Of a stretch of 64,000 nucleotides of DNA, positions 3,001 through 63,929 are shown piece by piece. The position numbers and the translations under genes were made by a program. The stretch is from a virus. Position 1 is the first letter of the stretch; the number at the start of each line of letters is the position of its first letter. The notes beneath the pieces were generated by a model, which saw only the letters and a list, made by a program, of their open reading frames with translations, was not told the DNA's origin and ran no database searches. Location: positions 17,153 to 81,152 of IMG/VR virus record IMGVR_UViG_3300042691_032784; one strand, written 5' to 3'.

Positions 3001-6000
3001 ATTATTAATAAAAGACTTAAAGATTTACGAAATGAATTAGGTAGTAAAACTGCTATTTTAGATAAAAATAAAGCTTTAAGATTAAATACAGCTGAAAATA
3101 TTCAAAAAGAAATTGATATTTTACAAGTTAAAATATATGCTTTTGTATCTCAACGTAATATATTTTTATCTAATAATTTATTGAATATGGATATAGAAAA
3201 TTCTATATTAGAAAATAATATTTTAGATATTCATTTTTCTGTATTAAATAATCCTGCTAAAGAAGTACAAAAAGCTAGAATTAATCCATTAGGTTTTGGT
3301 AATTTACCATCTTTAGTTAATAAAGTATCTAAAAATATTAATAAAACTACTTTTAGTCCTTTTAATGATAACTACCAAAGTTATAAATATACAAATGCTA
3401 GGGCTGGTAAAAATGCAGTAGGTTTATTTTCATTAGATAGTGTTTTTAATGCAGTATTACAATATATTGAAGGTAATGTTAATTTTTATAAAACTACTAA
3501 AGAAGGTATTGAAATTGATTATAATTTAAATATAGCAGGATATAATAATGTTAATTTAAATAATCCTAATAGTAGTGTACCAGGAAAATATAAATCTGAT
3601 GTTATTTCTGCTTTTCAATCAGCCGCATTAGATAATGAAAAAGAACAATTATTAGGTAAATTAAATATAAATAGTAATACTTTTGATACTATTAGAGCTA
3701 TGTCTTTAATGGGATTTGATGAAAATATTATTATTGCTTTTATAAATCAACCTATAATTATAGAGTATTTTAATAAAGCTATTGAAATTCCTAGTTTTAA
3801 TGAAAATTTTAAAATATTATTAAAGAAAACTTCATTAGAAAAAATGTTTAATAATATTAAAGATGGAAATATAGATACTGAATATCAAAAAGCTGTATTA
3901 TATTATTTTAATGATTTAAGTAATAAAGGTGCTATATTAAAACAAATACAAAGTACTATTAATTCAGATAGTAGCGGTATTGGTAAAAATTTCTTTTATT
4001 CATTAACTAAAGGAGACCAAATTTTAACATTACCTAAATATGATAGTGATATTAGAAATATTAGTAAATTAATTGGAGATTATTCTACTTCCCCTTTAGA
4101 AGATAGTGTTGATTACAAAGGTACTTATATTAAACCTAATAGTATTAGTGGTTTTGCTTCTACTTTTGGAGTATTAACTAATAATAAATTATGGAATAAT
4201 TTTTATCTTTATAATAAAGGTAAAATTAGAGCTATATTTACAGCAATAATAGAAAGTCAAAATGAAACTTATAATACTATTCAGAAACAAGCTGATGCAC
4301 TTAATAGAGTTACTAATTCTTTTAAATCTTTCTTAAGTTCCAACACATTCCATCTATGGGGAAAAGACACACAAACTGTAAATGATTTAAGATATAATTT
4401 ATTATATGATACTGAAACTAATATGAGTTTAGGTTCTATAATTAATAATTTAACTCAAAAAGATAAACCTTTTACTAATCCATTATTAGATAGATTACAA
4501 ATAGGTAGAAATAATGTTACTAATACCTTTTTAGGTAGAATACCTACTGTTATTAATTATTATAATGCAGGAAGTATTGAAATGAATGAAGAAATTATTA
4601 TTAATAGTATTATTGATATGTTAGTTAATAATACTTATTTAGGTGTATATAATAATAAAAATTATACTACTCGTAATTTAGCAGAAGATTTAATAGCTTA
4701 TCAAATGATTACTAGTGGTATACAACAATCTAATAATTTTATTAAATTTATACCTATTGAGTATTTAAAAAATATAGGATATTATAATAATATGATTGCT
4801 AATTATCAATTATTTACTAATGAAGATTTTGTAAATAGTGTATCAGAAGCATTTTATACTCAATATATTCAACATAATCCTGATGAATTTTATAATGAAG
4901 AGATAGCTAAAAATTATGAAGTAGTTGATGGAAAATTATTTAGTAATGGTACTATTAAAAGACCTTTAGTAGTTTTATCTGGTTTAATGCCTAATAGTTA
5001 TAGAATTTTTAAATATAATAAAGATATTAAAGATTTTGTTGAATTAGACACTTTAGGATATAAAGGATTACAAGAGTATGATATGTGGTCTAGTTTCGCT
5101 GGTAAAAGTACTGTTTATATTCAACAAGTAAATAATAATATTGATGTATTAAATAAATCTAATTTACCTGTATTTATTAATAATAAATTTAAAGAACCTA
5201 ATACAGAATATATTCCGGATGAAAAAAATATTAATGATTTTCTTTCATTAGATAGAGATACTGAACAAGATAATTCTCCTTTAGTATATAATACTAATAC
5301 TTCTGATTTAAGTAAAAAATATTATTTAACTGATACATCTTTACCTATTGCAGAAAAATATAAACATATTTTACGTAAAATTAGAAAAAATTCTGATAAT
5401 ACTATTTTATCTTATTTTGCAGGTAAAGTTTCTGAAATAATACCAGTATTAAATGATATACCTTTATATGTAGATACTAATTTACAAGCTAAGGGTAGAT
5501 TATATAAAAGTAAAGTATTTGGTGAACCTTATCAAATTAGAATTAATCCTAATAAGATAAAAACAGAAGAAGAATTACAAAGAGTTTTATTAGAAGAAAT
5601 AGTTCATGCTATTACTGCTATGGAAGTTGATAAAGGTAACTCTACTTTTATTAAAAATTTAGAATTATTAAGACAAGATGCTATTAAATTTGCTAAATCT
5701 AAATATGGAGAAGGTATAATTGATATAGTTAATGATAAAGTAAAAACTAAAAAACCTTTAATTACTGGTACTGAAAGTAATATTATTTATAATTTAAGTA
5801 ATTTACAAGAATTTATAGCAGCTTCTATAAATAATGTAGAATTTCAGAAGTTTTTAAATAGTATTAATGTTTCTGATAAAACTAAATCATTATGGAAAAG
5901 ATTAATAGATGCTATTACATCATTATTAGAAAGTTTAGGAGTTAAAAAAGATAGTAATTTATCAGTAGCTTTACATGAAATTATTAATTTATTTGATAAT

Positions 6001-9000
6001 GTAATAAAACCTACTATATATAGTAATTTTAATAAACCTAAATTTGTAAGAACTGTAGAGTATCTTAATAATAAATTTAATTTAGTTAATAATGAAGGTA
6101 TTTTAATTCAAAAAGCTAATGCTGAACAAATTGTTAATTTTATTAATAATAATATCGTAAATGTAATAGCAAAAGAACAAAATGGTACTGTTATAATTGA
6201 ACCTAATAGATTAATTGATTATTCTTTTGATTCTAATTATGAAACTGAATATGAAATTATTGAATCTACTCCTGTTAATTTTCCTTCTTATAAACAAGCA
6301 TTAGAATTAAGAGTTAAAAAATTAAGAACTGCTATTAAAAAAGCAAAAGATGAAGATAATTTTGTTAGAGTAAGTCAATTAGACGAAGTCTATAAAAAAG
6401 ATAAAGATTTATTAAGTCGTATTGATGATATTAATTTTTTAGGAGATATTGCAGATAAAGGTGAACAAGATTTACAAGTAGTTAATGATATGTTAAAAAG
6501 ACCTTTAACTTCTGAAGATATTGTTTATGCTAGAAGTATTATTAATTTTTGGAAAAATTCTAAAGAGTTATTATTTAATGATATTGCTAAAAAATCTAAA
6601 ATATTAGTAGAAGCTTTTACTGATTTAGAAGTAGAAGCAGGATTTTTAGCTGATGAATTATTAAGAATTGAGAAAGAATTTTTACAAGAATTTGTTAAAA
6701 AATATATAGGTAAAGAAACTGATATAGATAAAATATTTGAAGATTATAAAGATATTAATTTTTTACAATCTAATTTTAGAGATATTAGTACTTATGATAA
6801 TGAAATTTTAACTTCTATTTGGAGTGCTGTTAAACAAGCTAATATTAATGCTCAAGATGAATTTAATCAAAAATTAGAAGGTTTTGATAAATTATTAGAT
6901 AAAGTACTACCTATATTAAAATCTTTTGGTAATAAAGAATTATTTGAAGTTTTTAGACAAAAGAAAACTAATGGTAAGTTAACTGGACATTTAGTTAATC
7001 CTTATTCTAATTTATTTTATAAAGATAAAAATAAAGTTATTAGTAATTTAATTAAAGATAATAAATTTGAAAATTATATTAATTTAACTAATTTTATTAA
7101 AACTGTTGGAGAAAATACTAATTTAAGTTTAATTTTTCCTGCTAATGGTGAAATAACTGATGAGGTTATTAAAGCAAGAGAAGAATTAAAAAATAAATTA
7201 GGTCAAGGTGCTTATAATCTTTATATTAAAAAACAAGAAAAAAGATTAAAATCTTATCAAGAACATAAAGATGGTTATATTGAAGTATTATTAGATAGAT
7301 ATAATTTAAAAGATAGAGAAGATATTTTAAATAATGAAGAAGCTAAAAGAAAATATGAAAATTGGCAACTAGCTAATAGTCCATATGAATTAGAAAAACA
7401 TTCATTTAATAAAATTAATAATAGATTAAGTAATTTTACTGATTTTCAATCTCATAAATTTTATGAAATTATACCTATTAAAGAAGATAAAACAATTAAT
7501 TATTTTGATAGTAATTTTGATATTATTAGTAATAATAATGATTTATATGAATTTTATTCTTTTATTGAAAGTACTTTTGATGACCTTAGAAAGTTTGTTC
7601 CTGATGAACAACAAAAAGCTTTAGCTTATGGTGGTTTACCTTATATTGAAAAGACTTTAATAGAGATGTTTAATGAAAGAGGTATGCATTTAGGTTATAA
7701 ACCTATTTATGATGCTTTTATTGAATCTATGCAAAGTTCATTTTCTGATAATACTAATGCTGTTCTTGACCCTGTTACCGGACAACCTGAACAAGATATG
7801 AGAATACCTATTATTAAAGATAATTATCAATTTGTTAAAGATTATATTAATAAAAGAACTATTGAATATGTATCTATTAATAAAAAACAACCTAGTGTTG
7901 AATATATACAAGAATTTGAAGAAGATGCAGTTCATGAATACTCTCAAAAGAAATCTTTTGATTTAGGTAAAGTAGTTAAATCTTATACTGCTTTAGTATT
8001 AGCTCATAAACATAAAGCTAAAATTGAAGATAGTATTAAAATTGCTAATACTGTAATAGATTCTTATAAAGAATCTTATTATAGACCTGATGGTATACCA
8101 ATTACTAATAAAAGTGGTATTATTATGAAAAAACAAGAATCTGAATCTTTTCTTAAATTAAAAGAAGCTTTAGATAATTATACTAAAGCTAATATTTATA
8201 ATGATATTAGAGAAGAAGAAGGTAAAGGTAAAAAGATATTAACACCTACTGAAAAAGAAGAGAAGAAAGATTTAGAAAATAAATTAGAGCAATTACAAGA
8301 AGATTTAGCTAATAATGTTATAACACAAGAAGATTATGATACTACATTTAATTTAATTGTAGAACAATTAGCTAATCAAGGTAAAACTTTTATATATTCT
8401 AAAGCAGGTGATAATATGCTTAAATATTTACAACTTAAATTAATGGGTTGGAATGTATTAGGAGGTATTAGTAATATGGGATTTGGTTGGATTGCTAATT
8501 ATATTGAAGCTGCTGATGGTAGATTATATAGTAAACGTAATTTAAACTATGGTTATAAATTAGTGTTAAATAGTATTGGTAAAAATGTAAGTTTTAATTA
8601 TAATACAGGATTATATAATTCTGAAACAGCCAATAAAATTAGAAGTGCTATGGATAAATGGGATGTATTAAAAGATGCTTCTAATGAATTATATACTAAT
8701 ACTACATCTAATAGTTTTAATAAAAGATTAAAATGGTTAGCTCCTTATAATATGCAACAACGTACTGAATATATAAATCAAGCACCTTTATTAATTGCTT
8801 TAGCTAAAGAAACTAAAGTTAATACAATTAAAGGAGAAGTTAGTATTTGGGATGCTATGGATAATGATTTTAATTGGAATACTGCTGAATATGGAGAAGC
8901 TCCAACTGAAGTTATTACTAAATTAAGACTTAAATTAGATCAAATAATTAAACGTAATCATGGTAATTATGACCCTTTATCTACTATTAATGCTAAAAGA

Positions 9001-10662: not shown

Positions 10663-11202
10663 TTAATGTATTAAATATGATATAAAATTTTCTTTAGTTT
10701 TTAATGTAGGTAATATAATAAAATCATCTATAACTCTAATATAATAATTTCTTATATTTAAAGTATTAGCATTTATAGGATTATTATTAACTTCATCTAC
10801 TAATTCATTAGTAGAAGTTATAATAAGTGATTCAAAATAACTTTGAATTTCATCAAAATCTTTAGTAATACTAATATTATCTAATTTATATAATATACTT
10901 AAATAAGTTATTAATAAAATAAGTTTTTTATTATCTAATTTATTTTGTATATAATATTTTAATAATGTATTAATATTATGTTTACAATGATTTTGTATAA
11001 TTTCTTTATTCCATGAAACAAATAATCTTTCTGATATTTTAGTAATTTTTTCATCTAAAGTATCAGGTAAAATATTTACTAAATGGTTTGCAACATCAAC
11101 TATTTCTAAGGGGGAAAATTCATCAAGTAATTTTCTACCTTCAAATGTACTAGAATCTTCAAGACTTCTAATAATAATATTAAGTCTCTCTTGTCTTTCC
11201 AT
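10663..11202 (-). CDS. Hypothetical protein
   Basis: 179-aa ORF tightly packed in operon. Confidence 0.7.
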   Translation of the reverse strand: MERQERLNIIIRSLEDSSTFEGRKLLDEFSPLEIVDVANHLVNILPDTLDEKITKISERLFVSWNKEIIQNHCKHNINTLLKYYIQNKLDNKKLILLITYLSILYKLDNISITKDFDEIQSYFESLIITSTNELVDEVNNNPINANTLNIRNYYIRVIDDFIILPTLKTKENFISYLIH

Positions 11203-12227
11203 TATAATTTTAATAATTGATTAAATACATCTTGTCTAATAGTAGCATCTCCACTATTAAATGTATTTTTAAATTTAGCATCATTAGTACGATATTCTTT
11301 AACATTTTGAAAATAGCCAGTAATACCATTATACACTCCCCAAGCTGTACCTACTATATTTTCTTGTCCTATACCTTCATGGTAATAAGTAAGTGCTTTA
11401 TTTAATAGATTTTCCCCCTTAGAAGATAGTGTTTGTTTTGAATCTCTGACTAAACCTAATGCAGTTTCAATAATATCATAAGCAGTATCATCATTAACTT
11501 GCTTTTTACCTAATATACCAAAAGCTTCTTGATAAGCTAATGTATTTTGGTCTACAATACCTAGTATTTTTTTACTAAGTTCTAATTTAGTTTTAGCATT
11601 TTTAGTATGCATAATACTAACTTTAGTTTTGTTACCTCTTGTAGCAGCAGTTAATGTATTATTACAAACTACTCTTATTGGAGTAAACATAACTTGAATA
11701 CTACTAGTACCATCATGTGACATAGTTAATAATAAATATTTATCAATTAAATCTTTATTAATTACTAATTCTTCTGTTACTTTAGCAGTAATAAATATAA
11801 TTTCTCCATTACCTAATGCTCCTACTGTTTCATAAGATGCAAATTTACCAATAATACTATCCATAAAATCAAAAGCTTCATAATTTTGAATAATATTATA
11901 TTTTGCTCCTACTATTCCTAAGTACTGATTAGTATCATTTCTAACAGTTATAAATTTATCAGGAACTATAAATTCTTGTTTATAAATATTAGAATCTTTA
12001 AGTTTAACTCTTGAAATAGTATTATACTTTTTAGCATCATCAAAAGAAATATGTTTATTATCATGATAATAAATTTTTCTTTTTTCTACTTCAAAATCTA
12101 ATCCTCCTAATTTAATAGCTTCTTCAGAAGTCATAGCATCTACAACTTTACCTAAGCCATGCCATGGTACTTCTTTTTTACTAGCAAAACTAGCTCTATT
12201 ATTTATAATATTAAGATTGTGTGCCAT
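11202..12227 (-). CDS. DUF932/DUF945-family phage/plasmid-like protein
   Basis: PWHGLG, IIQNYEAFDF, SHDGTSS, TPIRVVCNNTL and GTAWGVYNG motifs. Confidence 0.85.
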   Translation of the reverse strand: MAHNLNIINNRASFASKKEVPWHGLGKVVDAMTSEEAIKLGGLDFEVEKRKIYYHDNKHISFDDAKKYNTISRVKLKDSNIYKQEFIVPDKFITVRNDTNQYLGIVGAKYNIIQNYEAFDFMDSIIGKFASYETVGALGNGEIIFITAKVTEELVINKDLIDKYLLLTMSHDGTSSIQVMFTPIRVVCNNTLTAATRGNKTKVSIMHTKNAKTKLELSKKILGIVDQNTLAYQEAFGILGKKQVNDDTAYDIIETALGLVRDSKQTLSSKGENLLNKALTYYHEGIGQENIVGTAWGVYNGITGYFQNVKEYRTNDAKFKNTFNSGDATIRQDVFNQLLKL

Positions 12228-18920: not shown

Positions 18921-20003
18921 TTAAAAGATTAATTCATCTGAAGTATCATTTAATGTAATACCTAATTTATTTAATATAATATCAAAATCTTTTTTAGCTT
19001 CTTCACTATAACAATGTTTATTTCTAAATTTAATTAGTAATTCTTTAATACCAAATTTAGAAGCTATAAAGTTTTTAATACCATTAATTGCTTTTTGAAA
19101 AAAACTTTGTTGTTTAAAATGTTCTTTCATACTTTGATTAGTAATAAGAACTTCTTTAATTTCATTAGTTTCTTTATCTACTACTTTTGCAATAAACTCT
19201 ATATTTTCTCCTACTGCTCTAGCTTTAATAGAAGGATAATAAGTACTAGGAATATGACTTACGTATCTATAATCATCATAATTTTGGTCTACAAAATTAA
19301 TTTCAGCTTGTGCTTCATTAATTTTAGAACTATGATAACTAACTTCAAAACTTCCAGGTACTTTTCTATCTCTATCTAGTTTAAGTCTAGCAGGTGGAAA
19401 GTTATAAGATTTTTTAATATTTTTAAGATTACATACAAATAATTTACCTGAATAAATATTACCTACTGGTTTATCTACTATATCTCCATGATATTCATTT
19501 GAATATATAATATCTTTCTTTTTAATTAAGTTATTATTAAAATAATCAAAATCAGATTTAGGTATAGTAAAACCAAGATAAAAATTAGTATTTGATTCAA
19601 AAGGTTTAAATTCTAAAGCTAATGTAGTACCTAATATAGCTTGTTCTTGCCAAATAGGTTTTATTATATGATTATTAGCTTTAAGTTCAATAGGATAATT
19701 AAGACGTAAAAATATAAGAAAAGCCATTTTAAGTCCTTCTCCGTGTTGTCCTATTGAATTTTCTTTATCTTCTTTTTGTGATTCTCCTATTTTAAGAAAA
19801 GAAAAATTATCAGGTTTAAAATCATTTTTAAGAGTAATACTAATATATTCAATATTATTGACAATAGCAGAAATACCTATTTGTTGAGTAAAATTACCAT
19901 AATCAATAAAGTTTTGATATATTTCTCTAAGAGCTTCTTGAATACCCCAATCTTTAAGATAATTTTCTCCTATACCATAATTTATAGTAATATTATTATT
20001 CAT
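18921..20003 (-). CDS. GHKL (HATPase_c-like) ATPase domain protein
   Basis: ALREIYQNFID (ExxxN), GESQK, IGQHGEGLKMA glycine lid. Confidence 0.75.
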   Translation of the reverse strand: MNNNITINYGIGENYLKDWGIQEALREIYQNFIDYGNFTQQIGISAIVNNIEYISITLKNDFKPDNFSFLKIGESQKEDKENSIGQHGEGLKMAFLIFLRLNYPIELKANNHIIKPIWQEQAILGTTLALEFKPFESNTNFYLGFTIPKSDFDYFNNNLIKKKDIIYSNEYHGDIVDKPVGNIYSGKLFVCNLKNIKKSYNFPPARLKLDRDRKVPGSFEVSYHSSKINEAQAEINFVDQNYDDYRYVSHIPSTYYPSIKARAVGENIEFIAKVVDKETNEIKEVLITNQSMKEHFKQQSFFQKAINGIKNFIASKFGIKELLIKFRNKHCYSEEAKKDFDIILNKLGITLNDTSDELIF

Positions 20004-21324
20004 AGTCTCTTACAATATTATCAATTACATGAAAAGGTATCATATCTTCAGTATATTCATAAAATGTACAAGTAAGCATTTTATTAATAAATAAATGTTT
20101 TTGAAATAAAACTAAAGATTTAAAATTATTATCTCCTTTAGGATTTACTTGAAATTCTTTACCTTGTTTAGTTCTACAAACAAATAAACCTAAATCAGGA
20201 TTTTTATCTTGAGGAATAATATCAATAATTTTAAATTCTTCATCTATAACTCTTTTAAGTTTTACCATATCCATAGGACGTTTACCAAATTGATAAAATC
20301 CTTCAGGATTTCTTAAAATAGAACCCTCATAACCATCTTTAATATAATTATCAGTAAGTGTTTGAACTGTAGCATCACTTTTAATTTTATAAGTAGTTAC
20401 AACATCTATTGAATTAGTAAAATCTTTTTCTTTAATTTGATTTATAATATCTTTAAGAATTGTAAATCTTGAAATATTATTAAGATTTTTAACACCTAAA
20501 TCAAATGCAATAAATTGAACTCTATTTGTATCTAAATTAGGAGCTTTAACAGCAGAAGATATAGTTTGTAATTTTTCTCCATGAATATATAATTCACCAT
20601 CGAAAAATATATCATCTAATTCAAGTCCATAACCTTTAAGATTTTCATCTATTAAAGTTTTGTTACCAACCAACACAACTTCTAAGTGGGGAAGATTATA
20701 TCTCTTACCTTCTTTACTAAGTATTTGTACTTTATTATTAATAAAACTAATAGTACATCTAACTCCATTAATTTTAGGTTGTATTAAACAAGGAAATTTA
20801 ATAATAATTGCTCCTTTTTCTTTAGGTTCATAAGGATTAAGTAAATAAAAATATTTTCTATCATCCCATAATTTACCATTAGGGTCAATCCAATCTTTTT
20901 TACTACGATAATATTGTTGAGCTTTCATAGGTTTAAGATTACCAAGAGCATCAGTATTATCAATAGGTAAATGTTTTTTTAAATATTCCCCCATAGAAAT
21001 TGTGTTGGTTGTAGAAGATAATCCAAAATCCTCATTTTCTTTAAGATAATTATTATATCCAATATCTTCTAAACTTTTATAACCTAAATCTTTTTTACGT
21101 CTATAAAGACTTTCTACTTCTAAAGTAGCTTGTGTTAAAGGAGATGTTTCATTAGATTTTCCAATGTTTTTTCCTTTAATATTATTTCTAGTAGTTTCTA
21201 CTATTTTTCCTTCTAATTCTCCTGCTTTAAGTATAATTTGTATACCTTGTATATTTTTATTAACTTCTGCTGACCATTGAAGTACTTTACCTTTACTATC
21301 TTTTTTATATAAAATTTCTGTCAT
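19996..21324 (-). CDS. ATP-dependent DNA ligase
   Basis: QPKINGVR (motif I), FDGELY, FIAFD, GYEGSILR, MVKLK. Confidence 0.92.
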   Translation of the reverse strand: MTEILYKKDSKGKVLQWSAEVNKNIQGIQIILKAGELEGKIVETTRNNIKGKNIGKSNETSPLTQATLEVESLYRRKKDLGYKSLEDIGYNNYLKENEDFGLSSTTNTISMGEYLKKHLPIDNTDALGNLKPMKAQQYYRSKKDWIDPNGKLWDDRKYFYLLNPYEPKEKGAIIIKFPCLIQPKINGVRCTISFINNKVQILSKEGKRYNLPHLEVVLVGNKTLIDENLKGYGLELDDIFFDGELYIHGEKLQTISSAVKAPNLDTNRVQFIAFDLGVKNLNNISRFTILKDIINQIKEKDFTNSIDVVTTYKIKSDATVQTLTDNYIKDGYEGSILRNPEGFYQFGKRPMDMVKLKRVIDEEFKIIDIIPQDKNPDLGLFVCRTKQGKEFQVNPKGDNNFKSLVLFQKHLFINKMLTCTFYEYTEDMIPFHVIDNIVRDYE

Positions 21325-42358: not shown

Positions 42359-42364
42359 ATTATT

Positions 42365-43511: not shown

Positions 43512-43514
43512 AAT

Positions 43515-43862
43515 ATGGTACCATTAATTTTAATGCCTGTTAAAGTTATAAATAATATAACTAATAAGTTTAATGGAGATATAGTTATTAAAGCTATTTC
43601 ATTAAATATTGCTGTTATTAAAAGTATTTCAGAAGATGAAGATAGTGGTCATGCTAATATTGAACTGTATAATAATATGTCTGACGTAGAAAATCCTAAT
43701 ATTAAAACTGCTATTCCTTTTATTACTTTTATTAATCATTTAAATAATATGCAATTAGTAGATTTTACTTTTTATAATTATTGTATGTCTTATAGTGATG
43801 CTGTAGATGATTATATTAAAAAAGGAATAGAACTTAGTAAACAACAAGACCTTAATAAATAA
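43515..43862 (+). CDS. Hypothetical protein
   Basis: 115-aa ORF. Confidence 0.65.
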   Translation: MVPLILMPVKVINNITNKFNGDIVIKAISLNIAVIKSISEDEDSGHANIELYNNMSDVENPNIKTAIPFITFINHLNNMQLVDFTFYNYCMSYSDAVDDYIKKGIELSKQQDLNK

Positions 43863-43866
43863 TAAA

Positions 43867-44802
43867 ATGGAAAATATATTATTTAATGAAGCAGAACATA
43901 AATATTATGATACAGAAGGAAAAATATATACTTCTGTAACTACTCTTATAGGTCAATATACTAATACTTTTGATGAAGATTTTTGGGCTATTTATACTGC
44001 TTTAAAAGAAAAGAATTTTAAAGTTAAACCTCAACCTGAAGTTAGACAAATTTATGTAAATAATGTTTTATTTAAATCTGATGATTTAATTAGAGATGCT
44101 AGATTTAAAAATTGGTATGATGAAATTAAAGCTAGATGGAAAAGTATTAATTTTGAAGCTTGTGAAAGAGGAAATAATACTCATAATGAATTAGAATTAG
44201 GTATTAATCAAAGTAAAGGAGATTTGTTTGGTTTAACCAACAACAACATATCTTCTAAGGGGGATAAAGTTTTAGCTACACAACATGATTTAGATAATAC
44301 TATTATTAAATCTAAATATCCTGAAGTTTATATTAGACTTTCTGGATATATTAATAATGGTTTTTCTATATTTGCTGAAAAGAAAGTTTTTCTTAAAGAA
44401 TTTTTATTAGCAGGTATGATTGATGTTCCTTTAGTTAAAAATAAACATTTTTGTATTCTTGATTGGAAAACTAATAAAGATGAACTTAAAACTAAAGCTG
44501 GATATTATAAAAAGTCTAAAATTGGAAATACTTGGGTTAAAACAGATATATTTGTTGAAACAGGAGAATGTTTTAAGTTTCCTCTTAATCATCTTGAAGC
44601 TAGTAAATTTAATATTTATTCATTACAACTTAGTACTTATGCTTATATTCTTGAACAATGGGGATATATATTAGTTAATAATGGACTTGAAATAATACAT
44701 TTTCCTTTAGGTTCTTCACCTAAATTAATTAAAATTCCTTATTTAAAAAGAGAAGTAGAAATTATGTTAAATCACCATAAACAAAATATATTATGCAATT
44801 AG
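43867..44802 (+). CDS. PD-(D/E)xK nuclease
   Basis: F-E-EHKY, SVTTLI, GNNTH, AGMID...ILDWKTN, YSLQLSTY. Confidence 0.85.
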   Translation: MENILFNEAEHKYYDTEGKIYTSVTTLIGQYTNTFDEDFWAIYTALKEKNFKVKPQPEVRQIYVNNVLFKSDDLIRDARFKNWYDEIKARWKSINFEACERGNNTHNELELGINQSKGDLFGLTNNNISSKGDKVLATQHDLDNTIIKSKYPEVYIRLSGYINNGFSIFAEKKVFLKEFLLAGMIDVPLVKNKHFCILDWKTNKDELKTKAGYYKKSKIGNTWVKTDIFVETGECFKFPLNHLEASKFNIYSLQLSTYAYILEQWGYILVNNGLEIIHFPLGSSPKLIKIPYLKREVEIMLNHHKQNILCN

Positions 44803-45257
44803 GTTTATTTATAACACTAGATAATACATTAATTACTACTAGAAGTGGTAGAACTCATGCATTACATAGTGAAGATTGGAAATTTATTTCTGAAACTATT
44901 TATGCTATAAAAGATTATTATGATAAAGGTTATAAAATTTTTATTATTTGTAATCAATTTCAAATATCTCAAGGATTTACTCCTAAACTTGCTTTTGTTA
45001 AAAAATTAGAAGATATTATTGAAACTATTGAAAAAGATTTAAAACTTAAAAAAAATTCTATATCTTACGATTATAATATTGAAGAAGGTTTATATAGAAC
45101 TTTACCTAATCCTGGTATTATTTATGAACTAGCAACTGATTTTGAAATAGATGTAGTTAATTCTATTTTAATAGGAAGTTGTTATGCTGATAAACATACA
45201 GCTATTAATTCAGGAATAAAAAATTATATAACTGTTACTGATTTAGTTTATAATTAA
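44793..45257 (+). CDS. HAD IIIA (PNKP/GmhB-like) phosphatase homolog with degenerate active site
   Basis: FITLDNTLI, IICNQ, PNPG, IGSCYAD. Confidence 0.75.
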   Translation: MQLGLFITLDNTLITTRSGRTHALHSEDWKFISETIYAIKDYYDKGYKIFIICNQFQISQGFTPKLAFVKKLEDIIETIEKDLKLKKNSISYDYNIEEGLYRTLPNPGIIYELATDFEIDVVNSILIGSCYADKHTAINSGIKNYITVTDLVYN

Positions 45258-45267
45258 ATAAAATTAT

Positions 45268-47553: not shown

Positions 47554-47557
47554 TATA

Positions 47558-49861: not shown

Positions 49862-49869
49862 TTAAAATT

Positions 49870-51180: not shown

Positions 51181-51219
51181 TATACTCTAAATTAATATTA
51201 ATTTTAAATTCAATTTATT

Positions 51220-52731: not shown

Positions 52732-52749
52732 TACTTTTGGTTTAAACTT

Positions 52750-52785
52750 AAATAAGGTTACTAATTATTTAGTAGCCTTATTTTT
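52750..52785 (+). terminator. Intrinsic terminator after MCP
   Basis: AAATAAGGTTACTAA...TTAGTAGCCTTATTTTT stem with T-tract. Confidence 0.8.
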
Positions 52786-52816
52786 ACTTTTAATAATATA
52801 AAAATAAATAAATTTT

Positions 52817-53911: not shown

Positions 53912-53927
53912 ATTAATAATTAAATTA

Positions 53928-54977: not shown

Positions 54978-54990
54978 TTAAATTTAACTT

Positions 54991-55914
54991 ATGGAAAATG
55001 TTTTTATTGTTAATGCTATCGGAACTAAAGAATCTTCAACTACTGCTAGTATTGAAGGTTTAGCCGCTAGAGAAGTTCTTGTAATAGGAACTAATAATGT
55101 TGTACTTGCTACTCCTGCTGATTGTGTAGGTGTAGATGGTTTTTATTTTGTAACTAAATTAACTAGTGGTAAATTTAGAACTAGTGCTGTTATTAAAAGA
55201 CGTAATGTTACTTCTATTAAAAAGAAAGACTATGTTGCTTTTACTTTGCCTCAATGGCGACTTGCATCAGGAAGTAATGGACTTAATGTAGAAACTACAG
55301 GAGAAGCACAAATTGGTATTACTAATAAATCTTATAATAGAACTATTAATTACCAAAGAGTAAATGTAAATGTAGTTAAATTAGCAGGAGAAAGTACTGC
55401 TACTTATTTAGCTAAAGTAGTTGCAGCTTTAAATGCTGAAAATAGTAAATTATCTCAAACTTTATTTACAGCTACATTAGGTAATACCAGTTCTAATTAT
55501 TTTATAACTATAGCTTCTACTAATAGAAATGCAGATATTTCTATTACAATGGATGGTATGTTTGCCGGTACTGAAATTACTAATACTGTTGTTGCTGTAA
55601 CAGGTAATGGTTTTGGTGCTGATATTGTAGCTCTTGAAAAAGACCATTCTAAAAATTTAGGTAATCAAGGTTATGAAAGATTAACAGAAGCTTGGTATAA
55701 TGCTCCTACTGAATCTTTAGCTACTGAAAATTATGATATTCTTAATTTAGCTTGGAAAGGTGAATCACCTACTGCAAGTTCTAGTATGACTGTAGCTAGT
55801 AATACTATTACTTTAGGATTTCCTACAGGAGGTACTGTAATTGATAATGTAGAAACTTTACTTAGATATTTATCAGGAGATACTTATATTGATGAAACTC
55901 CTATTGAACCATAA
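54991..55914 (+). CDS. Putative auxiliary capsid/structural protein
   Basis: Thr/Ala-rich with GNGFG motif; followed by a terminator, suggesting high expression. Confidence 0.55.
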   Translation: MENVFIVNAIGTKESSTTASIEGLAAREVLVIGTNNVVLATPADCVGVDGFYFVTKLTSGKFRTSAVIKRRNVTSIKKKDYVAFTLPQWRLASGSNGLNVETTGEAQIGITNKSYNRTINYQRVNVNVVKLAGESTATYLAKVVAALNAENSKLSQTLFTATLGNTSSNYFITIASTNRNADISITMDGMFAGTEITNTVVAVTGNGFGADIVALEKDHSKNLGNQGYERLTEAWYNAPTESLATENYDILNLAWKGESPTASSSMTVASNTITLGFPTGGTVIDNVETLLRYLSGDTYIDETPIEP

Positions 55915-55940
55915 TATTTTATTTATTTGTTGTTAATCCT

Positions 55941-55980
55941 AAAACTACTGATACTGATTATCTTTATCAGTAGTTTTTTT
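55941..55980 (+). terminator. Intrinsic terminator
   Basis: AAAACTACTGATA...TATCAGTAGTTTT stem with T-tract. Confidence 0.75.
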
Positions 55981-55993
55981 AATTTAAACTAAT

Positions 55994-58255: not shown

Positions 58256-58257
58256 TT

Positions 58258-58734
58258 ATGAAATTAAATATTAATAATAGAATTTTTGATATATTTAGAT
58301 TACCACTTAAATTATTAAAAATTCCTTTAGCAGATGATAATGAAGATAATAAAATATTAGTAGTTAATCCTAAAGGAGAAGTTAGATATACTAATAATTT
58401 ACCTTCTAATTCTAATACTGAAACATTTACTAAATTAGTTTATTATGTAAATAGCCAAGATGCAACAGGTTTACTTAATATAAGTAAAGTAACATCTAAT
58501 GTTGATATTGATTTTTCTTTTCCAAGACAAGAAGTTGGTATTTTTAGTTTAAATTTTGATTTTCCTGGAGATTTTTATATAGATTTTAAAGGAGCAGTTC
58601 AAGGCAGAAATGATTGTATTGAATATAATAAAGAAGAAAATAATTTTAAAACTTATGATAATTTAGGAAATTTAAGTGATTTTTATGCTTTTGAATTTGG
58701 AGGTTGGATTATTATACATTTATTAAATAATTAA
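58258..58734 (+). CDS. Hypothetical structural protein
   Basis: 158-aa ORF in the tail region. Confidence 0.6.
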   Translation: MKLNINNRIFDIFRLPLKLLKIPLADDNEDNKILVVNPKGEVRYTNNLPSNSNTETFTKLVYYVNSQDATGLLNISKVTSNVDIDFSFPRQEVGIFSLNFDFPGDFYIDFKGAVQGRNDCIEYNKEENNFKTYDNLGNLSDFYAFEFGGWIIIHLLNN

Positions 58735-58754
58735 TTAATTTAAAATATTATTAT

Positions 58755-59090
58755 ATGGAAGGAATTTTTGTAAAATTATCATTAAGTATTTTAAGTATAT
58801 TATTATATACTTTATTAAAAGCTTTACCTTATATTCAAAATAATAGTTTTGATATTAAATATTTTTTAAATCATAATTATAAAAAATGGATATGGTCTTT
58901 AATTACTATTATTATAGTAGTTATTATTATTAGTTTAGAACCTGCTACAGGAGAATTAATAAAAGTATTTTTAGGATTAGATATATTAGATACTCCTGCT
59001 TCTTTTTTTACTTTAGGTTTAGGTATATCTAATCTCGTTCAAGATGTAAGTAAAAGTAATAAAAAACAATTAGAAAAACATGATGGATAA
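58755..59090 (+). CDS. Holin-like membrane protein
   Basis: Two to three TM helices; upstream of the amidase. Confidence 0.55.
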   Translation: MEGIFVKLSLSILSILLYTLLKALPYIQNNSFDIKYFLNHNYKKWIWSLITIIIVVIIISLEPATGELIKVFLGLDILDTPASFFTLGLGISNLVQDVSKSNKKQLEKHDG

Positions 59091-59319
59091 TTCAGATTTT
59101 ACTATTACAAGTATTAAACCTTTAATAGTATCTTTACTTGGATTAATTATTAGTTATGTTAATATTAATCAAATTCTTAGTATTATTGTATTAATTTTAT
59201 CTATTATATATACTGGTTATAAAATAGAAGAAATGCATAATAAAAGAAAAACTAGATTAAAAGAAGAAAAAGAAGTTAAATCTAAATTAGAAGAAAATGA
59301 TAACAACAATAATAATTGA
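59080..59319 (+). CDS. Holin/antiholin-like small membrane protein
   Basis: Hydrophobic segments with a charged C-terminus; adjacent to the amidase. Confidence 0.55.
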   Translation: MMDNSDFTITSIKPLIVSLLGLIISYVNINQILSIIVLILSIIYTGYKIEEMHNKRKTRLKEEKEVKSKLEENDNNNNN

Positions 59320-59935
59320 TAGAGGTCATGGTTTATTAGATAAACAAGGTAATTATGTTACTCCTGGTAAAAGAGCTACTCTCCCTGATGGGAGAGTAGT
59401 TTTTGAAGGTTTAGAAAATAATAAATATGCAAAAGCTATTGCTAAAGCTGCTAAAGAAGCAGGATTTAATGTAATTTTTACTGTACTTACTACTGATTTT
59501 AAAGATGTATCTTTAGTAGAAAGAGTAAATAAAGCTAATAAACATCCTAATAAAAATAGTGCTATATTTTTATCATTACATAATAATGCCGCTAATGGTA
59601 AAGCTTTTGGAACAGAATTATTTACTTCTAAAGGTCAAACATTATCTGATATATATGCACAACATATTATTGATAGATATAGAATTAGTTTTCCTAACAG
59701 ACGTATGAGAACTGATAAAACAGATAAAGATTGTGATAAAGAATCTAATTTTTATGTTTTAGCTAGAACTATTATGCCTTCTATATTATTTGAATTTGGA
59801 TTTTTTGATAATCCTACTGATTATGATTGGTTAAGTAATGAAAAAAATATAGATTTATTAGCAAAATGTACAATAGATGGTATTGTATCTGCTAATATTG
59901 ATTTATATGGAGAGCATATATATCCACTTAAATAA
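59297..59935 (+). CDS. Endolysin, N-acetylmuramoyl-L-alanine amidase (Amidase_3)
   Basis: IIDRGHG, E, LVERVNKAN, SLHNNA, MPSILFEFGFFDN. Confidence 0.92.
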   Translation: MITTIIIDRGHGLLDKQGNYVTPGKRATLPDGRVVFEGLENNKYAKAIAKAAKEAGFNVIFTVLTTDFKDVSLVERVNKANKHPNKNSAIFLSLHNNAANGKAFGTELFTSKGQTLSDIYAQHIIDRYRISFPNRRMRTDKTDKDCDKESNFYVLARTIMPSILFEFGFFDNPTDYDWLSNEKNIDLLAKCTIDGIVSANIDLYGEHIYPLK

Positions 59936-59941
59936 TTAATT

Positions 59942-61261
59942 ATGAATGATTTTTTAAAAGTACTTAAAGGTAATTTACAATTTCCAAATATTAATATTTT
60001 TAATAGAAATAAAACTACTAATAATATTAAATTTCTTTGTATTACTAATGAAGGAAAACTTTTAATATTAGAAGATATAAATACTTTTAATGAAATTGTA
60101 AAGTTTTATAAAAATGTAGAATTTCATAATTCTAATTTAATATTTTATAATAATTTAGGAAAAGAAGTTGCTGCAATAACATTAAGTAATGGAGTTTTAG
60201 ATTTATTATCTAATGATGTAGCTAAAGTAAATGGAGCTAATATTATTACAGATATTAATGGAATTACTGCTGATGCTAATGGTTCTGTTACTTTAAATTT
60301 AAATTCAGCTCCTAGAGTAGTAAATTCTAACACTACTGCTATAAATGATGAAACTATTATTATAGTTGCTGATAGTACAATTTCTAATCCTTCTATACCT
60401 GTAGAGGGTAAAGGATATAAAGTTATAATAGTTAACGGTATAGCTACTATTAATGGAATTAATTATGGAGAAGGTAGAATTATTACTAGATTTTTTCATA
60501 GTGGTTCTTGGAGAACAAAAGTTTATGTAGATGAAACAATTATTGGAAGTGCTGTACAAACAGCTTTAAATAATAAACAAAATACATTAGGTTATACTCC
60601 TGAAAATGTAATAAATAAAACTAATTTAATTACAAGTGGAATAGGGACTTATCCTAATACCCCAACTGTTAAAAATTATGTTGATTTAGATGAATCTTCA
60701 TTTGGAGTTAAAAATAGATATGTTAGTGTATTGTCTATACAATCTACAATTACAACTTCAAATTTAGGTTCTAGTGCCGCTAATACAAATAATAGAGTAA
60801 CTTTTATACCTTTTAGAGTAGGTAAAGATATAAATATTAAAAATATTGCAATTTTACAAAATGCTGAAAATAATGGAGCAAATTCTAATTTAACTTTTTA
60901 TATATATAATGATAGTAATGATGGATTACCAGGTATTAAACTTCATCAAGTTATAAGTTCAAATGGTATATTTATAGGAGCAACTAAAGTAATAGATTTA
61001 CTAACTAATTTTAATTTAGTTAGAGGAAATTATTGGATAGGTATACATTTAAGAAGTTTAAATACAGTAGGTACTAATCCTACATTTGTTGGAGGAAATG
61101 TAACTTGGAATAGTGTATTAGAAGATACTTTAATCTATTCAAATAATAGAAATAATGTTTTAGTAGTAGCTAATCAATCTACTGATTTAGGAAATAATCC
61201 TATCTTATCTAATAGTTTATCAGCAACTATTTCTTTACCACAAATTTTTATAAAATTATAA
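59942..61261 (+). CDS. Tail fibre/receptor-binding protein
   Basis: INGITADANGSVTL, TALNNKQNTL, YPNTPTVKNYVD fibre motifs and beta-sandwich C-terminus. Confidence 0.7.
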   Translation: MNDFLKVLKGNLQFPNINIFNRNKTTNNIKFLCITNEGKLLILEDINTFNEIVKFYKNVEFHNSNLIFYNNLGKEVAAITLSNGVLDLLSNDVAKVNGANIITDINGITADANGSVTLNLNSAPRVVNSNTTAINDETIIIVADSTISNPSIPVEGKGYKVIIVNGIATINGINYGEGRIITRFFHSGSWRTKVYVDETIIGSAVQTALNNKQNTLGYTPENVINKTNLITSGIGTYPNTPTVKNYVDLDESSFGVKNRYVSVLSIQSTITTSNLGSSAANTNNRVTFIPFRVGKDINIKNIAILQNAENNGANSNLTFYIYNDSNDGLPGIKLHQVISSNGIFIGATKVIDLLTNFNLVRGNYWIGIHLRSLNTVGTNPTFVGGNVTWNSVLEDTLIYSNNRNNVLVVANQSTDLGNNPILSNSLSATISLPQIFIKL

Positions 61262-63185: not shown

Positions 63186-63929
63186 ATGAAAACATTAAAT
63201 CAAATAGCAGAAAATATTGCTTTTAAATTAGGAGATCAATTTAATCATACTTTACAAGAAAGTATAAAAGATACTCTAATAGATTGGAGAGCTAAATTTT
63301 TAAGAGATGATGCAGATAGAAATTTTATATCTGATATTCATTTTTCTCAAACTATTACTATACAATTTCAAAAAGTTAATTTATTAACTGAATTTAATGC
63401 TAATTTTGATTGTATTAATAGTATATGTAGTGGTATTCAAGAACAAGAAGAATATATGATTCTTAAAAGTACTAAAAAAATACCATTACCTATAAGAACT
63501 AAAATTAGTCATACAAATCCATATAATTATATAGGAAGTATTGATGGTTTTAGAAGTTTTAAATATACTACTATTGATAAATTTCCTTATTTAAAACATT
63601 TAAAATATAATAGTAGAGTTATTTATTATATTATTATAGATGGATATTTATATATAATAAATAATTTAGATTTGTGTGATATTAATAATACTTTAAATAT
63701 TTGTAATGTTATGATTCGTGGAGTTTTTGAAAATCCTAGAGAAGTATTTAAAGTTTGTTCTGTTAATAATGGATTTGCAGATGATGCTATTTTCCCCATA
63801 GGTGTTGATATGTTGATGCAAATTAGTAATGGTATTGTAAGAGGTGAATATCCTCTTAAATCTAGTAAAGGTGAAGAAATAAATATTAAGAATAATGATA
63901 ACAATCAAAACAATGTTCGAACTTCATAA
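63186..63929 (+). CDS. Tail ring/structural protein (crAss-like)
   Basis: MKTLNQI..., ILKSTKKIPLP, GYLYI, RGVFENP. Confidence 0.6.
   Translation: MKTLNQIAENIAFKLGDQFNHTLQESIKDTLIDWRAKFLRDDADRNFISDIHFSQTITIQFQKVNLLTEFNANFDCINSICSGIQEQEEYMILKSTKKIPLPIRTKISHTNPYNYIGSIDGFRSFKYTTIDKFPYLKHLKYNSRVIYYIIIDGYLYIINNLDLCDINNTLNICNVMIRGVFENPREVFKVCSVNNGFADDAIFPIGVDMLMQISNGIVRGEYPLKSSKGEEINIKNNDNNQNNVRTS

What the first reader, a model, noticed from the sequence alone, without database searches (positions are those of the whole stretch)
4089..63807. Hidden genome-wide ~25-bp DNA motif (CAACAY-N4-6-TCTAHGGGGGAAA) written into coding sequence in any frame and strand
Seen: 18 copies counted by eye, 9 per strand. 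Examples: CAACACTATTATCTATGGGGGAAA (29248+), CAACACCTCCTTCTACGGGGGAAAA (50033+), CAACACTATCATCTATGGGGGAAAA (54294-), CAAACACTATCTTCTAAGGGGGAAAA (11410-), CAACACAATTTCTATGGGGGAATA (20984-). G4-G6 runs are otherwise uncommon in this AT-rich genome. Sixteen copies lie inside unrelated genes (vRNAP, DUF932, ligase, PolA, nuclease, portal, scaffold, ring proteins). They are translated as SKGE/SMGE/STGE, HLWGK, FYGEK, or from the other strand as FSPLE/VSPID/LPPLE/LPHLE, using codons rare here (GGG, CCC, ACG). This points to selection on the DNA rather than the protein. Inference: a recognition site for a sequence-specific protein. Candidate roles are programmed nick sites (bipartite nick consensus sites are known in phiKMV-like phages), priming or helicase-loading sites, Chi-like protection sites, virion-RNAP sites, or sites for a DNA-organising protein. 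I know of no description of this motif in crAss-like phages.
Basis: partly seen in the sequence, partly recalled or inferred. Interest (0 to 1): 0.92.

Follow-up and report, generated by a model that had tools for sequence, protein, structure and literature searches.

The report
Evenly spaced paired crAss-phage DNA signal
A 25-base DNA word is written about 23 times through the genes of this freshwater crAss-like phage, one copy on each strand at a dozen evenly spaced places, and its relatives carry it in altered spellings; a phage enzyme that marks or cuts single DNA strands probably reads it, a step not yet described for these abundant viruses.

Summary
The window holds 18 copies (9 per strand) and the whole 81-kb genome holds 23. 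The core word occurs 16 times, against 0.16 expected in codon-preserving shuffles. Copies form inverted pairs, one per strand, at 11 loci spaced 5.4-9.6 kb apart (gap CV 0.18; random 0.89).

Four related IMG/VR genomes each carry their own spelling of both halves of the motif. Many copies sit at the same codon positions, and synonymous codons follow each genome's spelling.

The core (pyrimidine tract-TA-N-G run-AA) is also present in cultured gut phage crAss002 (34 copies, control 5) and a Carjivirus. Earlier notes of this scan reported the same signal on other crAss DNA; I found nothing in print. In crAss002 each strand is evenly spaced but the strands are not paired, so tight pairing is special to this clade.

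Function is not shown. My best reading (0.35) is programmed strand-specific nick sites, as in T5, phiKMV and tf, but on both strands. A phage ATP-ligase and DUF932 occur in 5 of 5 ligase/DUF932-carrying crAss lineages (4 with the G-run motif) and in 0 of 5 motif-negative ones. Rivals are priming sites, a nuclease-control mark, an architectural protein and a promoter. Native nanopore reads of crAss002 DNA would decide.

The parts
4086..4118 (-). motif copy (pair 1, divergent), inside giant vRNAP ORF, antisense
   Evidence: 29.9 bits (genome 21238-21270)
4335..4367 (+). motif copy (pair 1), inside vRNAP ORF, sense
   Evidence: 29.3 bits
11087..11119 (+). motif copy (pair 2, convergent), in 179-aa ORF, antisense
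   Evidence: 33.6 bits
11409..11441 (-). motif copy (pair 2), in DUF932 gene, sense; same codon position in G001 and G004
   Evidence: 40.9 bits
20663..20695 (+). motif copy (pair 3, convergent), in DNA ligase gene, antisense
   Evidence: 34.0 bits
20983..21015 (-). motif copy (pair 3), in DNA ligase gene, sense
   Evidence: 35.1 bits
29241..29273 (+). motif copy (pair 4, convergent), in 162-aa ORF next to PolA, antisense; position shared with G002
   Evidence: 36.4 bits
29443..29475 (-). motif copy (pair 4), 3' end of PolA gene, sense; position shared with G001 and G003
   Evidence: 26.1 bits
36514..36546 (-). motif copy (pair 5, divergent), in 132-aa ORF
   Evidence: 31.1 bits
36640..36672 (+). 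motif copy (pair 5), intergenic
   Evidence: 26.1 bits
41629..41661 (-). motif copy (pair 6, divergent), intergenic between the two gene blocks
   Evidence: 31.5 bits
42101..42133 (+). motif copy (pair 6), in 172-aa ORF, sense
   Evidence: 33.4 bits
44236..44268 (+). unpaired motif copy in the exonuclease gene, sense; also unpaired at the same position in G001
   Evidence: 31.7 bits
48019..48051 (-). motif copy (pair 7, divergent, 2 kb apart), in portal gene, antisense
   Evidence: 28.2 bits
50026..50058 (+). motif copy (pair 7), in 436-aa ORF after portal, sense
   Evidence: 40.1 bits
54293..54325 (-). motif copy (pair 8, divergent), in 349-aa ORF, antisense
   Evidence: 40.0 bits
54561..54593 (+). 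motif copy (pair 8), same ORF, sense
   Evidence: 29.0 bits
63788..63816 (-). motif copy in ring-protein-2 gene; its partner is the weak + copy at genome 117-145, across the contig ends and outside the window
   Evidence: 24.8 bits; partner 16.7 bits; both have orthologous copies in G001
19996..21324 (-). ATP-dependent DNA ligase; candidate sealing enzyme (inference only). Its presence across crAss lineages tracks the ligase/DUF932/motif group
44793..45257 (+). polynucleotide 3'-phosphatase (PNK3P); possible end-healing partner (inference only)
   Evidence: PF08645 E 1.8e-13
11202..12227 (-). DUF932 protein of unknown function; its presence tracks the motif-bearing group across crAss lineages; candidate reader (weak inference)

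Best explanation
The motif is a polar, strand-specific recognition site for a phage-encoded enzyme that co-evolves with it. Its form is an upstream 5-6-bp box, a ~5-bp spacer, a pyrimidine-rich tract ending in CTA, one or two free bases, a G run and AA. Each DNA strand carries its own evenly spaced set, about one copy per 7 kb. In this clade the two sets are locked in phase, giving about 11-13 two-strand loci per genome. I commit to programmed site-specific nicking of the motif strand: 'localized single-strand interruptions' of the kind known from T5, phiKMV-like and tf/LUZ24-like phages, here made on both strands. By analogy with phiKF77, the nicks would be present in virion DNA and sealed after injection by the phage's own ATP-dependent ligase, perhaps with the 3'-phosphatase. 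SHOWN: the motif, its excess over chance, DNA-level selection, lineage-specific co-variation of both halves, conserved positions, strand balance, even spacing, pairing, and kinship of the core with the crAss002/Carjivirus signal. INFERRED: that a protein reads it, that the act is strand-specific, and that the act is a nick. No nickase was identified.
For: Excess over chance.

Co-variation: every one of five genomes has its own spelling of both halves. G001's pattern has 14 exact copies against 0 in the reversed control.

Conserved positions: 16 of 19 mappable G001 sites lie within 2 bp of a G000 site on the matching strand. Of the mappable sites in the distant genomes, 3 of 10 (G002), 2 of 11 (G003) and 3 of 8 (G004) hit the same codon. 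There a conserved P-I-V is spelled with Pro CCC, CCA, CCT or CCC according to each genome's motif.

Strand-wise logic: 12 + and 11 - copies. Per-strand gap CV is 0.30 and 0.19, and locus gap CV is 0.18-0.43 in five genomes, against about 0.89 for random placement (P <= 0.004 each). True unpaired copies exist and are conserved. In crAss002 the strands are evenly spaced but not paired (3 of 14; P 0.64). So single sites work alone on their own strand.

Likeness to known nick motifs, read as passages in PMC3517423, PMC11780129 and PMC3604761: a rare long word, bipartite in phiKMV (CGACxxxxxCCTA/CTCCGG); found inside and outside genes; similar positions and slightly different spelling among relatives; co-evolution of nickase and site already proposed for tf.

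Gene association: an ATP-ligase domain is present in 5 of 5 tested lineages that carry DUF932 (four with the G-run motif, plus cr127_1) and in 0 of 5 motif-negative crAss lineages. DUF932 is absent from the same 5 negatives and present in the positives. A 3'-phosphatase gene is also present.
Against: No physical evidence for breaks: only assembled contigs were available. All published nick systems that I read put every copy on ONE strand and spread them unevenly; here both strands are used, evenly. No HNH, GIY-YIG, tyrosine-recombinase or topoisomerase-IB domain was found in the six-frame genome search, nor any nuclease in the Pfam/PHROG scans beyond a lambda-exo-type exonuclease. In G004 two copies on opposite strands would put nicks about 17 bp apart, a fragile arrangement. 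The ligase/DUF932 association rests on 10 lineages that are not phylogenetically independent and share a whole replication-module type. cr127_1 has ligase and DUF932 but not this motif.
Confidence: 0.35

Rival explanations
1. Strand-specific start sites for DNA synthesis. A phage primase, the virion RNA polymerase or a helicase loader recognises the motif and starts a primer (5'-GGGGGAAA...) on that strand. One site per strand per locus would give two-way starts, or fixed lagging-strand priming every ~7 kb.
For: The site is polar and about 25 bp long, laid out like a T7-type promoter: a variable upstream specificity box, a conserved (T)CTA-N, then a G run. G003 reads TCTATAGGGAA; the T7 consensus itself is recalled, not from a call. 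Both strands are used, evenly spaced and independent of gene direction. The genome encodes a primase, a DnaB-like helicase and PolA.
Against: The primase family is shared with the motif-negative phages Fpv3 and phi14:2. There is no AT-rich unwinding region between pair members (inner GC 0.18-0.27, genome 0.24). There is no replication-type skew sawtooth between loci (a weak test). A dozen origins, or 7-kb Okazaki units, have no precedent that I know. An earlier check in this scan priced this reading low (an AI note).
Confidence: 0.2
2. A self-mark that controls a travelling enzyme (Chi-like logic). A phage or host helicase-nuclease or translocase moving along DNA is stopped or switched when it meets the motif in the right orientation, so each direction needs a copy every few kb.
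For: It would explain orientation-specific sites on both strands, evenly spaced, wherever genes allow. The genome encodes RecD/Dda-like and SNF2 helicases, RecT and an exonuclease.
Against: Known Chi sites are 5-8 nt and host-specific (recalled). This word is about 25 bp, differs between close relatives and has 0 hits in 185,579 prokaryote species genomes. No candidate reader is known.
Confidence: 0.1
3. Binding sites of a dimeric architectural or bridging DNA-binding protein. The protein clamps the two inverted copies of a locus (adjacent or by looping) and divides the genome into ~7-kb domains for condensation, packaging or insulation.
For: Inverted, never direct, pairs with gaps from 0 to about 2 kb, in both convergent and divergent forms. 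In G000, 9 of 11 minus copies have a plus copy within 600 bp, against 1.96 in the rotation control (P 0.0055); G001 gives P 0.006 and G004 gives P 0.013.
Against: Conserved unpaired copies exist. crAss002 has the same core word without pairing. The arms of a pair are no more alike than random copies (P 0.21-0.89). No candidate protein was found; the 185-aa protein gave only a faint winged-helix hint (E 0.35).
Confidence: 0.13
4. Promoters for mRNA synthesis by the virion RNA polymerase or another phage-directed polymerase.
For: T7-promoter-like layout and co-evolution. Intergenic copies are enriched: 22 of 100 sites lie in about 7% non-coding DNA. Unpaired copies are mostly sense.
Against: 78 of 100 sites lie inside genes, and 33 of those 78 point against the gene. 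Convergent copies 17-300 bp apart would collide. No T7-type RNAP match was found, although the control for that search did not ring. In phi14:2, vRNAP early transcripts had no common motif and middle and late genes use host-type promoters (bioRxiv 10.1101/2020.03.07.982082, passages).
Confidence: 0.07
5. Invertible segments (invertons) flipped by a site-specific recombinase between the inverted copies.
For: Inverted repeats flank segments of 0.1-0.5 kb.
Against: Inverted segments are not open reading frames, so flipping would break essential genes. Pairs in G004 overlap or abut. No tyrosine recombinase was found; serine recombinases were not searched. No strand-change joints appeared at the pairs in 4 runs, although these were contigs only. 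There is no arm homogenisation.
Confidence: 0.02

Closest known systems
Nick consensus of phiKMV-like Pseudomonas phages, CGACxxxxxCCTA/CTCCGG (Kulakov 2009, as quoted in PMC3517423 and PMC3604761; passages read)
   Same: It is a long, bipartite, asymmetric word with a short upstream box, a ~5-bp spacer, YCTA and then a G/C-rich block. There are few copies per genome. It is shared by all relatives of the group. Its function is unknown.
   Different: In phiKMV there are 3-4 copies, all on the non-coding strand and mostly intergenic. Here there are about 23 copies, half on each strand, evenly spaced, paired and mostly inside genes. Nicks are not shown here.
tf / LUZ24-like / Rembedalsseter nick motif (W)ACT/RTGMC (PMC3517423, PMC11780129; passages read)
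   Same: It has 13-14 copies, many inside coding sequences. Positions are similar among relatives and the spelling is slightly different. Co-evolution of the enzyme and its site has been proposed.
   Different: It is a 9-bp word, on one strand only, crowded into one half of the genome. The nicks were shown physically.
Evenly spaced pyrimidine-tract/TAY/G-run word of gut crAss-like phages
   Same: The core is the same, CTCCTTTAYGGGGGAA against (C)TTCTAWGGGGGAAA. It lies on both strands, is evenly spaced per strand, and is sense, antisense or intergenic alike (crAss002: 14/11/7). The same replication-module genes (DUF932, ligase, RecT) accompany it.
   Different: In crAss002 there is no tight pairing of the two strands and no position-fixed upstream box. 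This clade has a strong upstream box that changes from genome to genome, and cores that drift as far as AGGCAA and GGGCAA.
Promoters of T7-type single-subunit RNA polymerases (consensus recalled, not from a call)
   Same: They are about 23 bp and polar, with an upstream specificity box that differs between related phages, a conserved TA-rich element and an initiating G run.
   Different: T7 promoters are intergenic and co-directional with the genes. No such polymerase was detected here.

Membership tests
Phage localized single-strand interruption (nick) motifs | Physical, ligatable nick in virion DNA at the motif | not testable with these tools
   Only Logan contigs were available for all 4 runs laid; there was no read-end table
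Phage localized single-strand interruption (nick) motifs | Rare specific word far above chance, kept in all relatives | tested here: met
Phage localized single-strand interruption (nick) motifs | All copies on one strand | tested here: not met
   12 + and 11 - copies in G000; about half per strand in all five genomes
Phage localized single-strand interruption (nick) motifs | Occurs inside and outside genes, without regard to gene direction | tested here: met
   45 sense, 33 antisense and 22 intergenic of 100 sites
Phage localized single-strand interruption (nick) motifs | Phage-encoded nicking enzyme | tested here: inconclusive
   No HNH, GIY-YIG, Tyr-recombinase or topo-IB domain. Many conserved proteins have no known fold.
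T7-type phage RNAP promoters | Cognate single-subunit RNAP gene | tested here: inconclusive
   PF00940 gave no match, but the control genomes did not ring either
T7-type phage RNAP promoters | Intergenic and co-directional with downstream genes | tested here: not met
   78 of 100 sites are inside genes; 33 of those 78 are antisense
Replication origins with inverted initiator sites | One or a few loci with an AT-rich unwinding element between the sites | tested here: not met
   11-13 loci per genome; inner GC 0.18-0.27 against 0.24 for the genome; gaps from 0 to 2 kb
Invertons | Recombinase, both orientations present, and a segment that can be flipped | tested here: not met
   No Tyr recombinase; flipped frames are closed; G004 pairs overlap; no strand-change joints at pairs (contigs only)
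Chi-like host recombination sites | Short host-specific word that is abundant in the host genome | tested here: not met
   The word is about 25 bp, differs between close relatives and has 0 matches in genome contigs
crAss-wide YTAYGGGGG strand signal (this scan's earlier notes) | Pyrimidine tract-TA-N-G run-AA, tens of copies, both strands, evenly spaced, written through genes | tested here: met
   G000. crAss002: 34 copies against control 5. Carjivirus: 18 against 0. Consensus:

The most novel reading that the evidence does not exclude
Crassvirales with the PolA/ligase/DUF932 replication module share an undescribed genome-maintenance step. A phage enzyme (possibly DUF932) reads a polar word on each strand at regular ~5-7-kb intervals and makes a strand discontinuity there. 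The genome would then be built or handled as a chain of defined single-strand segments on BOTH strands.
Probability: 0.25. Interest if true: 0.9.

Novelty: new variant of a known kind. Interest (0 to 1): 0.8.

Why it matters
Crassvirales are among the most abundant viruses of the human gut and, as seen here, of fresh water, yet how they replicate, package and eject their DNA is largely unknown. This signal is strong enough to dictate codons and even amino acids in essential genes such as the portal, the polymerase, the ligase and the virion RNA polymerase. It is kept at the same codons across deep divergence and re-spelled in concert, which marks a cis-trans pair under strong selection. If the sites are nicks, this would be the first two-strand, evenly spaced nick system. 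It would also give the 50-year-old question of what phage nicks are for a new and very large comparative data set. Because the same core occurs in cultured crAss002, the question can be tested directly. In practice, such sites would affect long-read sequencing and assembly of crAss genomes. The lineage-specific spellings could also serve as markers.

Tried and rejected
Reads. The phage is held by 19 runs of 16 studies, labelled freshwater, 'fungus' and bioreactor metagenomes and freshwater metatranscriptomes. All are Logan contigs. Laying 4 runs on window 41001-61000 gave no read-end table and no strand-change joint at the pairs. Three listed contig pieces end within about 15 bp of a site (X2 at 54308, X3 at 50023, X9 at 50062), but only 32 of 695 pieces were listed, so I draw nothing from this. 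Ends of 10 short related contigs do not coincide with sites.

Protein-level motif: rejected, because copies occur in several frames, on both strands and in intergenic DNA.

RNA or DNA stem between pair arms: rejected, because arms are no more alike than random copies.

Recoding invertons: rejected.

Extended element: there is no conservation beyond about 27 bp.

Replication skew sawtooth: none was seen.

Pairs bracketing gene boundaries: not significant (4 of 8 against 2.6 expected in G000, P 0.24).

Pfam and PHROG scans of about 75 ORFs and profile searches of five conserved unknown proteins against PDB sequences gave no nuclease or clear DNA binder.

Wider co-variation analysis. This was not possible. 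IMG/VR holds only about 17 contigs of the clade, the one metagenome scan gave 6 loci, and the long contigs seen could not be fetched.

Other crAss-like phages. Fpv3 and phi14:2 have no comparable word. cr127_1 has a different repeated element.

Papers. I saw passages only, never whole texts. Supplementary files (for example the promoter lists of the phi14:2 paper) were closed and may bear on the promoter rival.
Full report
WHAT IS THERE. The window is bases 17153-81152 of a single 81,152-bp virus contig with a 69-bp terminal direct repeat and 22-27% G+C. It is a crAss-like phage. TerL, portal and major head protein match the crAss PHROG families. Ring proteins 1 and 2 and the muzzle C-domain match crAss Pfam families. 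Residues 1986-3075 of a 5,065-aa ORF match the RNA-polymerase catalytic subunit g066 of phi14:2. All named relatives are distant, with TerL and portal at no more than about 30% identity. The runs that hold the phage are labelled freshwater, 'fungus' and bioreactor metagenomes.

The core TCTAHGGGGGAA occurs 9 times, against 0.01 expected. Eleven of the 12 runs of five or more G in the window are motif copies. A weight matrix gives 18 copies in the window (9 on +, 9 on -) and 23 in the genome, with consensus yCAACACTATCWTCTAWGGGGGAAA. Two hundred shuffles that keep all proteins and the codon usage gave a mean of 2.6 (max 5) matrix hits, against 21 real, and a mean of 0.155 (max 2) core words, against 16 real. 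The few hits that survive shuffling show that the motif has also shaped the amino-acid sequences.

WHAT THIS FINDING'S TEXT DID NOT SAY. The copies form inverted pairs, one per strand. The pairs, in genome coordinates, are: 80954-/131+ (across the contig ends), 5654-/7068+, 13934-/14255+, 21254-/21503+, 28255+/28577-, 37831+/38151-, 46409+/46611-, 53682-/53808+, 58797-/59269+ (with a lone 61404+), 65187-/67194+ and 71461-/71729+. Eight pairs are divergent and three are convergent, and the two forms are truly different arrangements. The 11 loci are 5.4-9.6 kb apart, with a gap CV of 0.18 against 0.89 for random placement (P < 0.0001). Twenty of 23 neighbouring copies lie on opposite strands (P 0.001). 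Rotating the minus set against the plus set shows that the pairing is not a by-product of two regular lattices: 9 of 11 minus copies have a plus copy within 600 bp, against 1.96 in the control (P 0.0055).

RELATIVES. The major head protein found 14 IMG/VR contigs, and a later profile search found 17. I fetched four complete ones: G001 (head protein 87% identical), G002 (79%), G003 (59%) and G004 (60%). Each has its own version of BOTH halves:

- G000: CAACAC..TCTAWGGGGGAAA
- G001: AACAAC..TCTATTGGGGAA (14 exact copies, 0 in the reversed control)
- G002: ..TCTAAAGGCAA
- G003: CTGAT/TGGA..T[CG]TA[TG]AGGGAA
- G004: TCGAAT..YCTAYGGGCAAG

There are 14-23 copies per genome, about half on each strand, at 11-13 loci with gap CVs of 0.29-0.43 (P <= 0.004 each). 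Pair gaps run from overlapping or abutting copies (G004 6294+/6323-, 14633-/14666+ and 78286-/78328+) to about 2 kb. Pairing is significant in G001 (P 0.006), G004 (P 0.013) and G003 (P 0.044). It is not significant in G002, where partners fall below my threshold.

DNA-LEVEL SELECTION AND CO-EVOLUTION. I mapped sites through protein alignments. Sixteen of 19 mappable G001 sites fall within 2 bp of a G000 site on the matching strand; 18 of 19 fall within 25 bp, and 4 of the 23 could not be mapped. Even the distant genomes share exact codon positions: 3 of 10 mappable sites in G002, 2 of 11 in G003 and 3 of 8 in G004. At one shared position a conserved Pro-Ile-Val is kept while the Pro codon is CCC, CCA, CCT or CCC, and the preceding residue changes, exactly as each genome's motif requires. 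So the places are old and all copies of a genome have been re-spelled in concert. That is what a cis site does when its trans-acting reader changes specificity. The strict word has 0 matches in one genome each of 185,579 prokaryote species and one unrelated match in IMG/VR.

RELATION TO GENES. Of 100 sites in five genomes, 45 are sense, 33 antisense and 22 intergenic, where non-coding DNA is about 7% of G000. Antisense copies are nearly always read as xSP[ILV][DE][DN]SV. This is because the reverse complements of the two CTA triplets put TAG into the other two frames, so it is a constraint and not a peptide signal. The arms of a pair are no more similar than random copies (P 0.21-0.89). That argues against an RNA or DNA stem and against exchange between arms. 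Flipped segments are not open frames. Nothing is conserved beyond about 27 bp.

A WIDER FAMILY. After my own analysis I consulted the scan's earlier notes. Several describe an evenly spaced, strand-specific pyrimidine-tract/TAC/G-run word in gut crAss-like phages. I tested this. Cultured crAss002 has 34 copies of YTAHGGGGR, against 5 for the reversed control. Its consensus is CTCCTTTAYGGGGGAA, with 14 sense, 11 antisense and 7 intergenic copies. Carjivirus C0521BD4 has 18 against 0, and Rudgehvirus has 7 against 1. The following are at control level:

- crAss001: 5 against 5
- DAC15: 4 against 3
- Fpv3: 3 against 3
- phi14:2: 1 against 2
- the Azobacteroides phage: 4 against 3
- cr127_1: 0 against 1

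The pattern misses re-spelled variants, since G001 itself scores 0. The core of this window's motif, (C)TTCTAWGGGGGAAA, is thus a divergent spelling of a Crassvirales-wide signal. In crAss002 each strand is fairly evenly spaced (CV 0.46 and 0.50), but the strands are not paired (3 of 14; P 0.64). Tight pairing, and the strong fast-changing upstream box, are features of the freshwater clade. I found no paper that describes any of this. The phi14:2 study found no common motif for vRNAP transcripts and host-type middle and late promoters (passages).

WHO READS IT. No candidate could be named with confidence. The genome encodes an ATP-ligase, primase, RecT-like protein, DnaB-like, SNF2 and Dda-like helicases, PolA with a separate exonuclease subunit, a lambda-exo-type exonuclease and a polynucleotide 3'-phosphatase. 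Six-frame searches found no HNH, GIY-YIG, tyrosine-recombinase or topoisomerase-IB domain. No T7-type RNAP was found, but the control for that search was silent. Five conserved proteins of unknown function gave nothing against PDB sequences.

One comparative lead stands. An ATP-ligase domain is present in 5 of 5 tested genomes of the ligase/DUF932-carrying group (G001, crAss002, Rudgehvirus, Carjivirus and cr127_1). It is present in 0 of 5 motif-negative genomes (crAss001, DAC15, Fpv3, phi14:2 and the Azobacteroides phage). DUF932 shows the same split. These ten lineages are not independent and differ in their whole replication module. cr127_1 carries both genes but a different repeated element. 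DUF932 is also common in actinophages. This is therefore a lead and not a finding.

HOW IT MOST LIKELY WORKS. The evidence points to a polar site read on its own strand. The points are strand balance, per-strand spacing, indifference to genes, conserved lone copies, and the unpaired sets in crAss002. The nearest known things are the nick-associated words of T5, phiKMV-like and tf/LUZ24-like phages. Those are rare long words, bipartite with YCTA before the break in phiKMV, found inside and outside genes, at similar places and with slightly different spelling in relatives, and with enzyme-site co-evolution already proposed (passages). With the ligase association and the 3'-phosphatase, I rank programmed nicking first (0.35). 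It fails one defining feature of the known systems, namely one strand only. No break and no nickase were seen. So I file it as working like those systems, in a new two-strand, evenly spaced, paired form, and not as a proven member.

Fixed priming or start sites come second (0.20). The layout is promoter-like, but the primase is shared with motif-negative phages and nothing in the composition looks like an origin. Next come a bridging architectural protein (0.13; it explains the pairing but not the lone copies or crAss002), a Chi-like control mark for a travelling enzyme (0.10), mRNA promoters (0.07) and invertons (0.02). The remaining probability is for something not listed here.

VERDICT. The feature is real, strongly selected and anciently conserved, and its function is unknown. 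It is not unique to this genome, but here it has its most ordered form. It can be tested directly in cultured crAss002.

Noticed in passing
L085/L086 (cr127_1, MT774393.1): 1777-, 11356+, 11920-, 19707-, 28706-, 28871+, 42048-, 42232+, 59325+, 82342+: This Crevaviridae phage has the same replication-module order, ligase and DUF932 but lacks the G-run word. Instead it carries 10-11 copies of a ~35-bp element (TAATGG-CCACAAGGGCGAGAGGTGTTCCGAAA) on both strands, three times as inverted pairs, one pair of which lies inside a giant ORF. It may be a promoter plus leader, or a strongly re-spelled counterpart of the motif.
   Followed up: partly
window 44793-45257 (+): A stand-alone polynucleotide 3'-phosphatase (PF08645, E 1.8e-13) lies between the exonuclease gene and TerL. 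This is unusual for a crAss-like phage and hints at healing of 3'-phosphate DNA or RNA ends.
   Followed up: partly
window 18921-20003 (-): A 360-aa protein conserved in G001, G002 and G004 has GHKL-ATPase-like boxes (E..N..D and GQHGEGLK in the alignment; weak Pfam HATPase_c_3, E 0.013; phrog_6077, unknown function). No tblastn match was found in G003.
   Followed up: partly
genome 11627-26824 (window 1-9672 is its 3' part): The virion RNA polymerase ORF is 5,065 aa in one frame, far longer than phi14:2 g066. Only residues ~1986-3075 align to g066. No Pfam family matches any part.
   Followed up: partly
window 24114-24761 (-) and 23303-24013 (-): Two conserved proteins of unknown family end in acidic tails (..EFEEEEV and ..DDLPDI), as single-strand-binding proteins often do. 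This is inference from the alignment only.
   Followed up: no
window 26892-27449 (-): A 185-aa protein lies between the DnaB-like and SNF2 helicases. It has 59 homologue clusters, all unnamed, several on contigs of 81-87 kb from NCBI and Logan sources, so many more complete genomes of this clade exist than IMG/VR holds. There is a faint MarR-type winged-helix hint (E 0.35).
   Followed up: partly
genome 1-69 and 81084-81152: A 69-bp exact terminal direct repeat of the contig. It is not a usual assembler k-mer length, and G001, G003 and G004 have repeats of 121-127 bp. Whether these are true ends or a circular assembly is open.
   Followed up: no
L050/L051 (Fpv3, KU599879.1): The 11-mer ATAAGTGAGGG occurs 5 times in Flavobacterium phage Fpv3 (about 260-fold over the composition expectation). 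It is unrelated to the motif studied.
   Followed up: no
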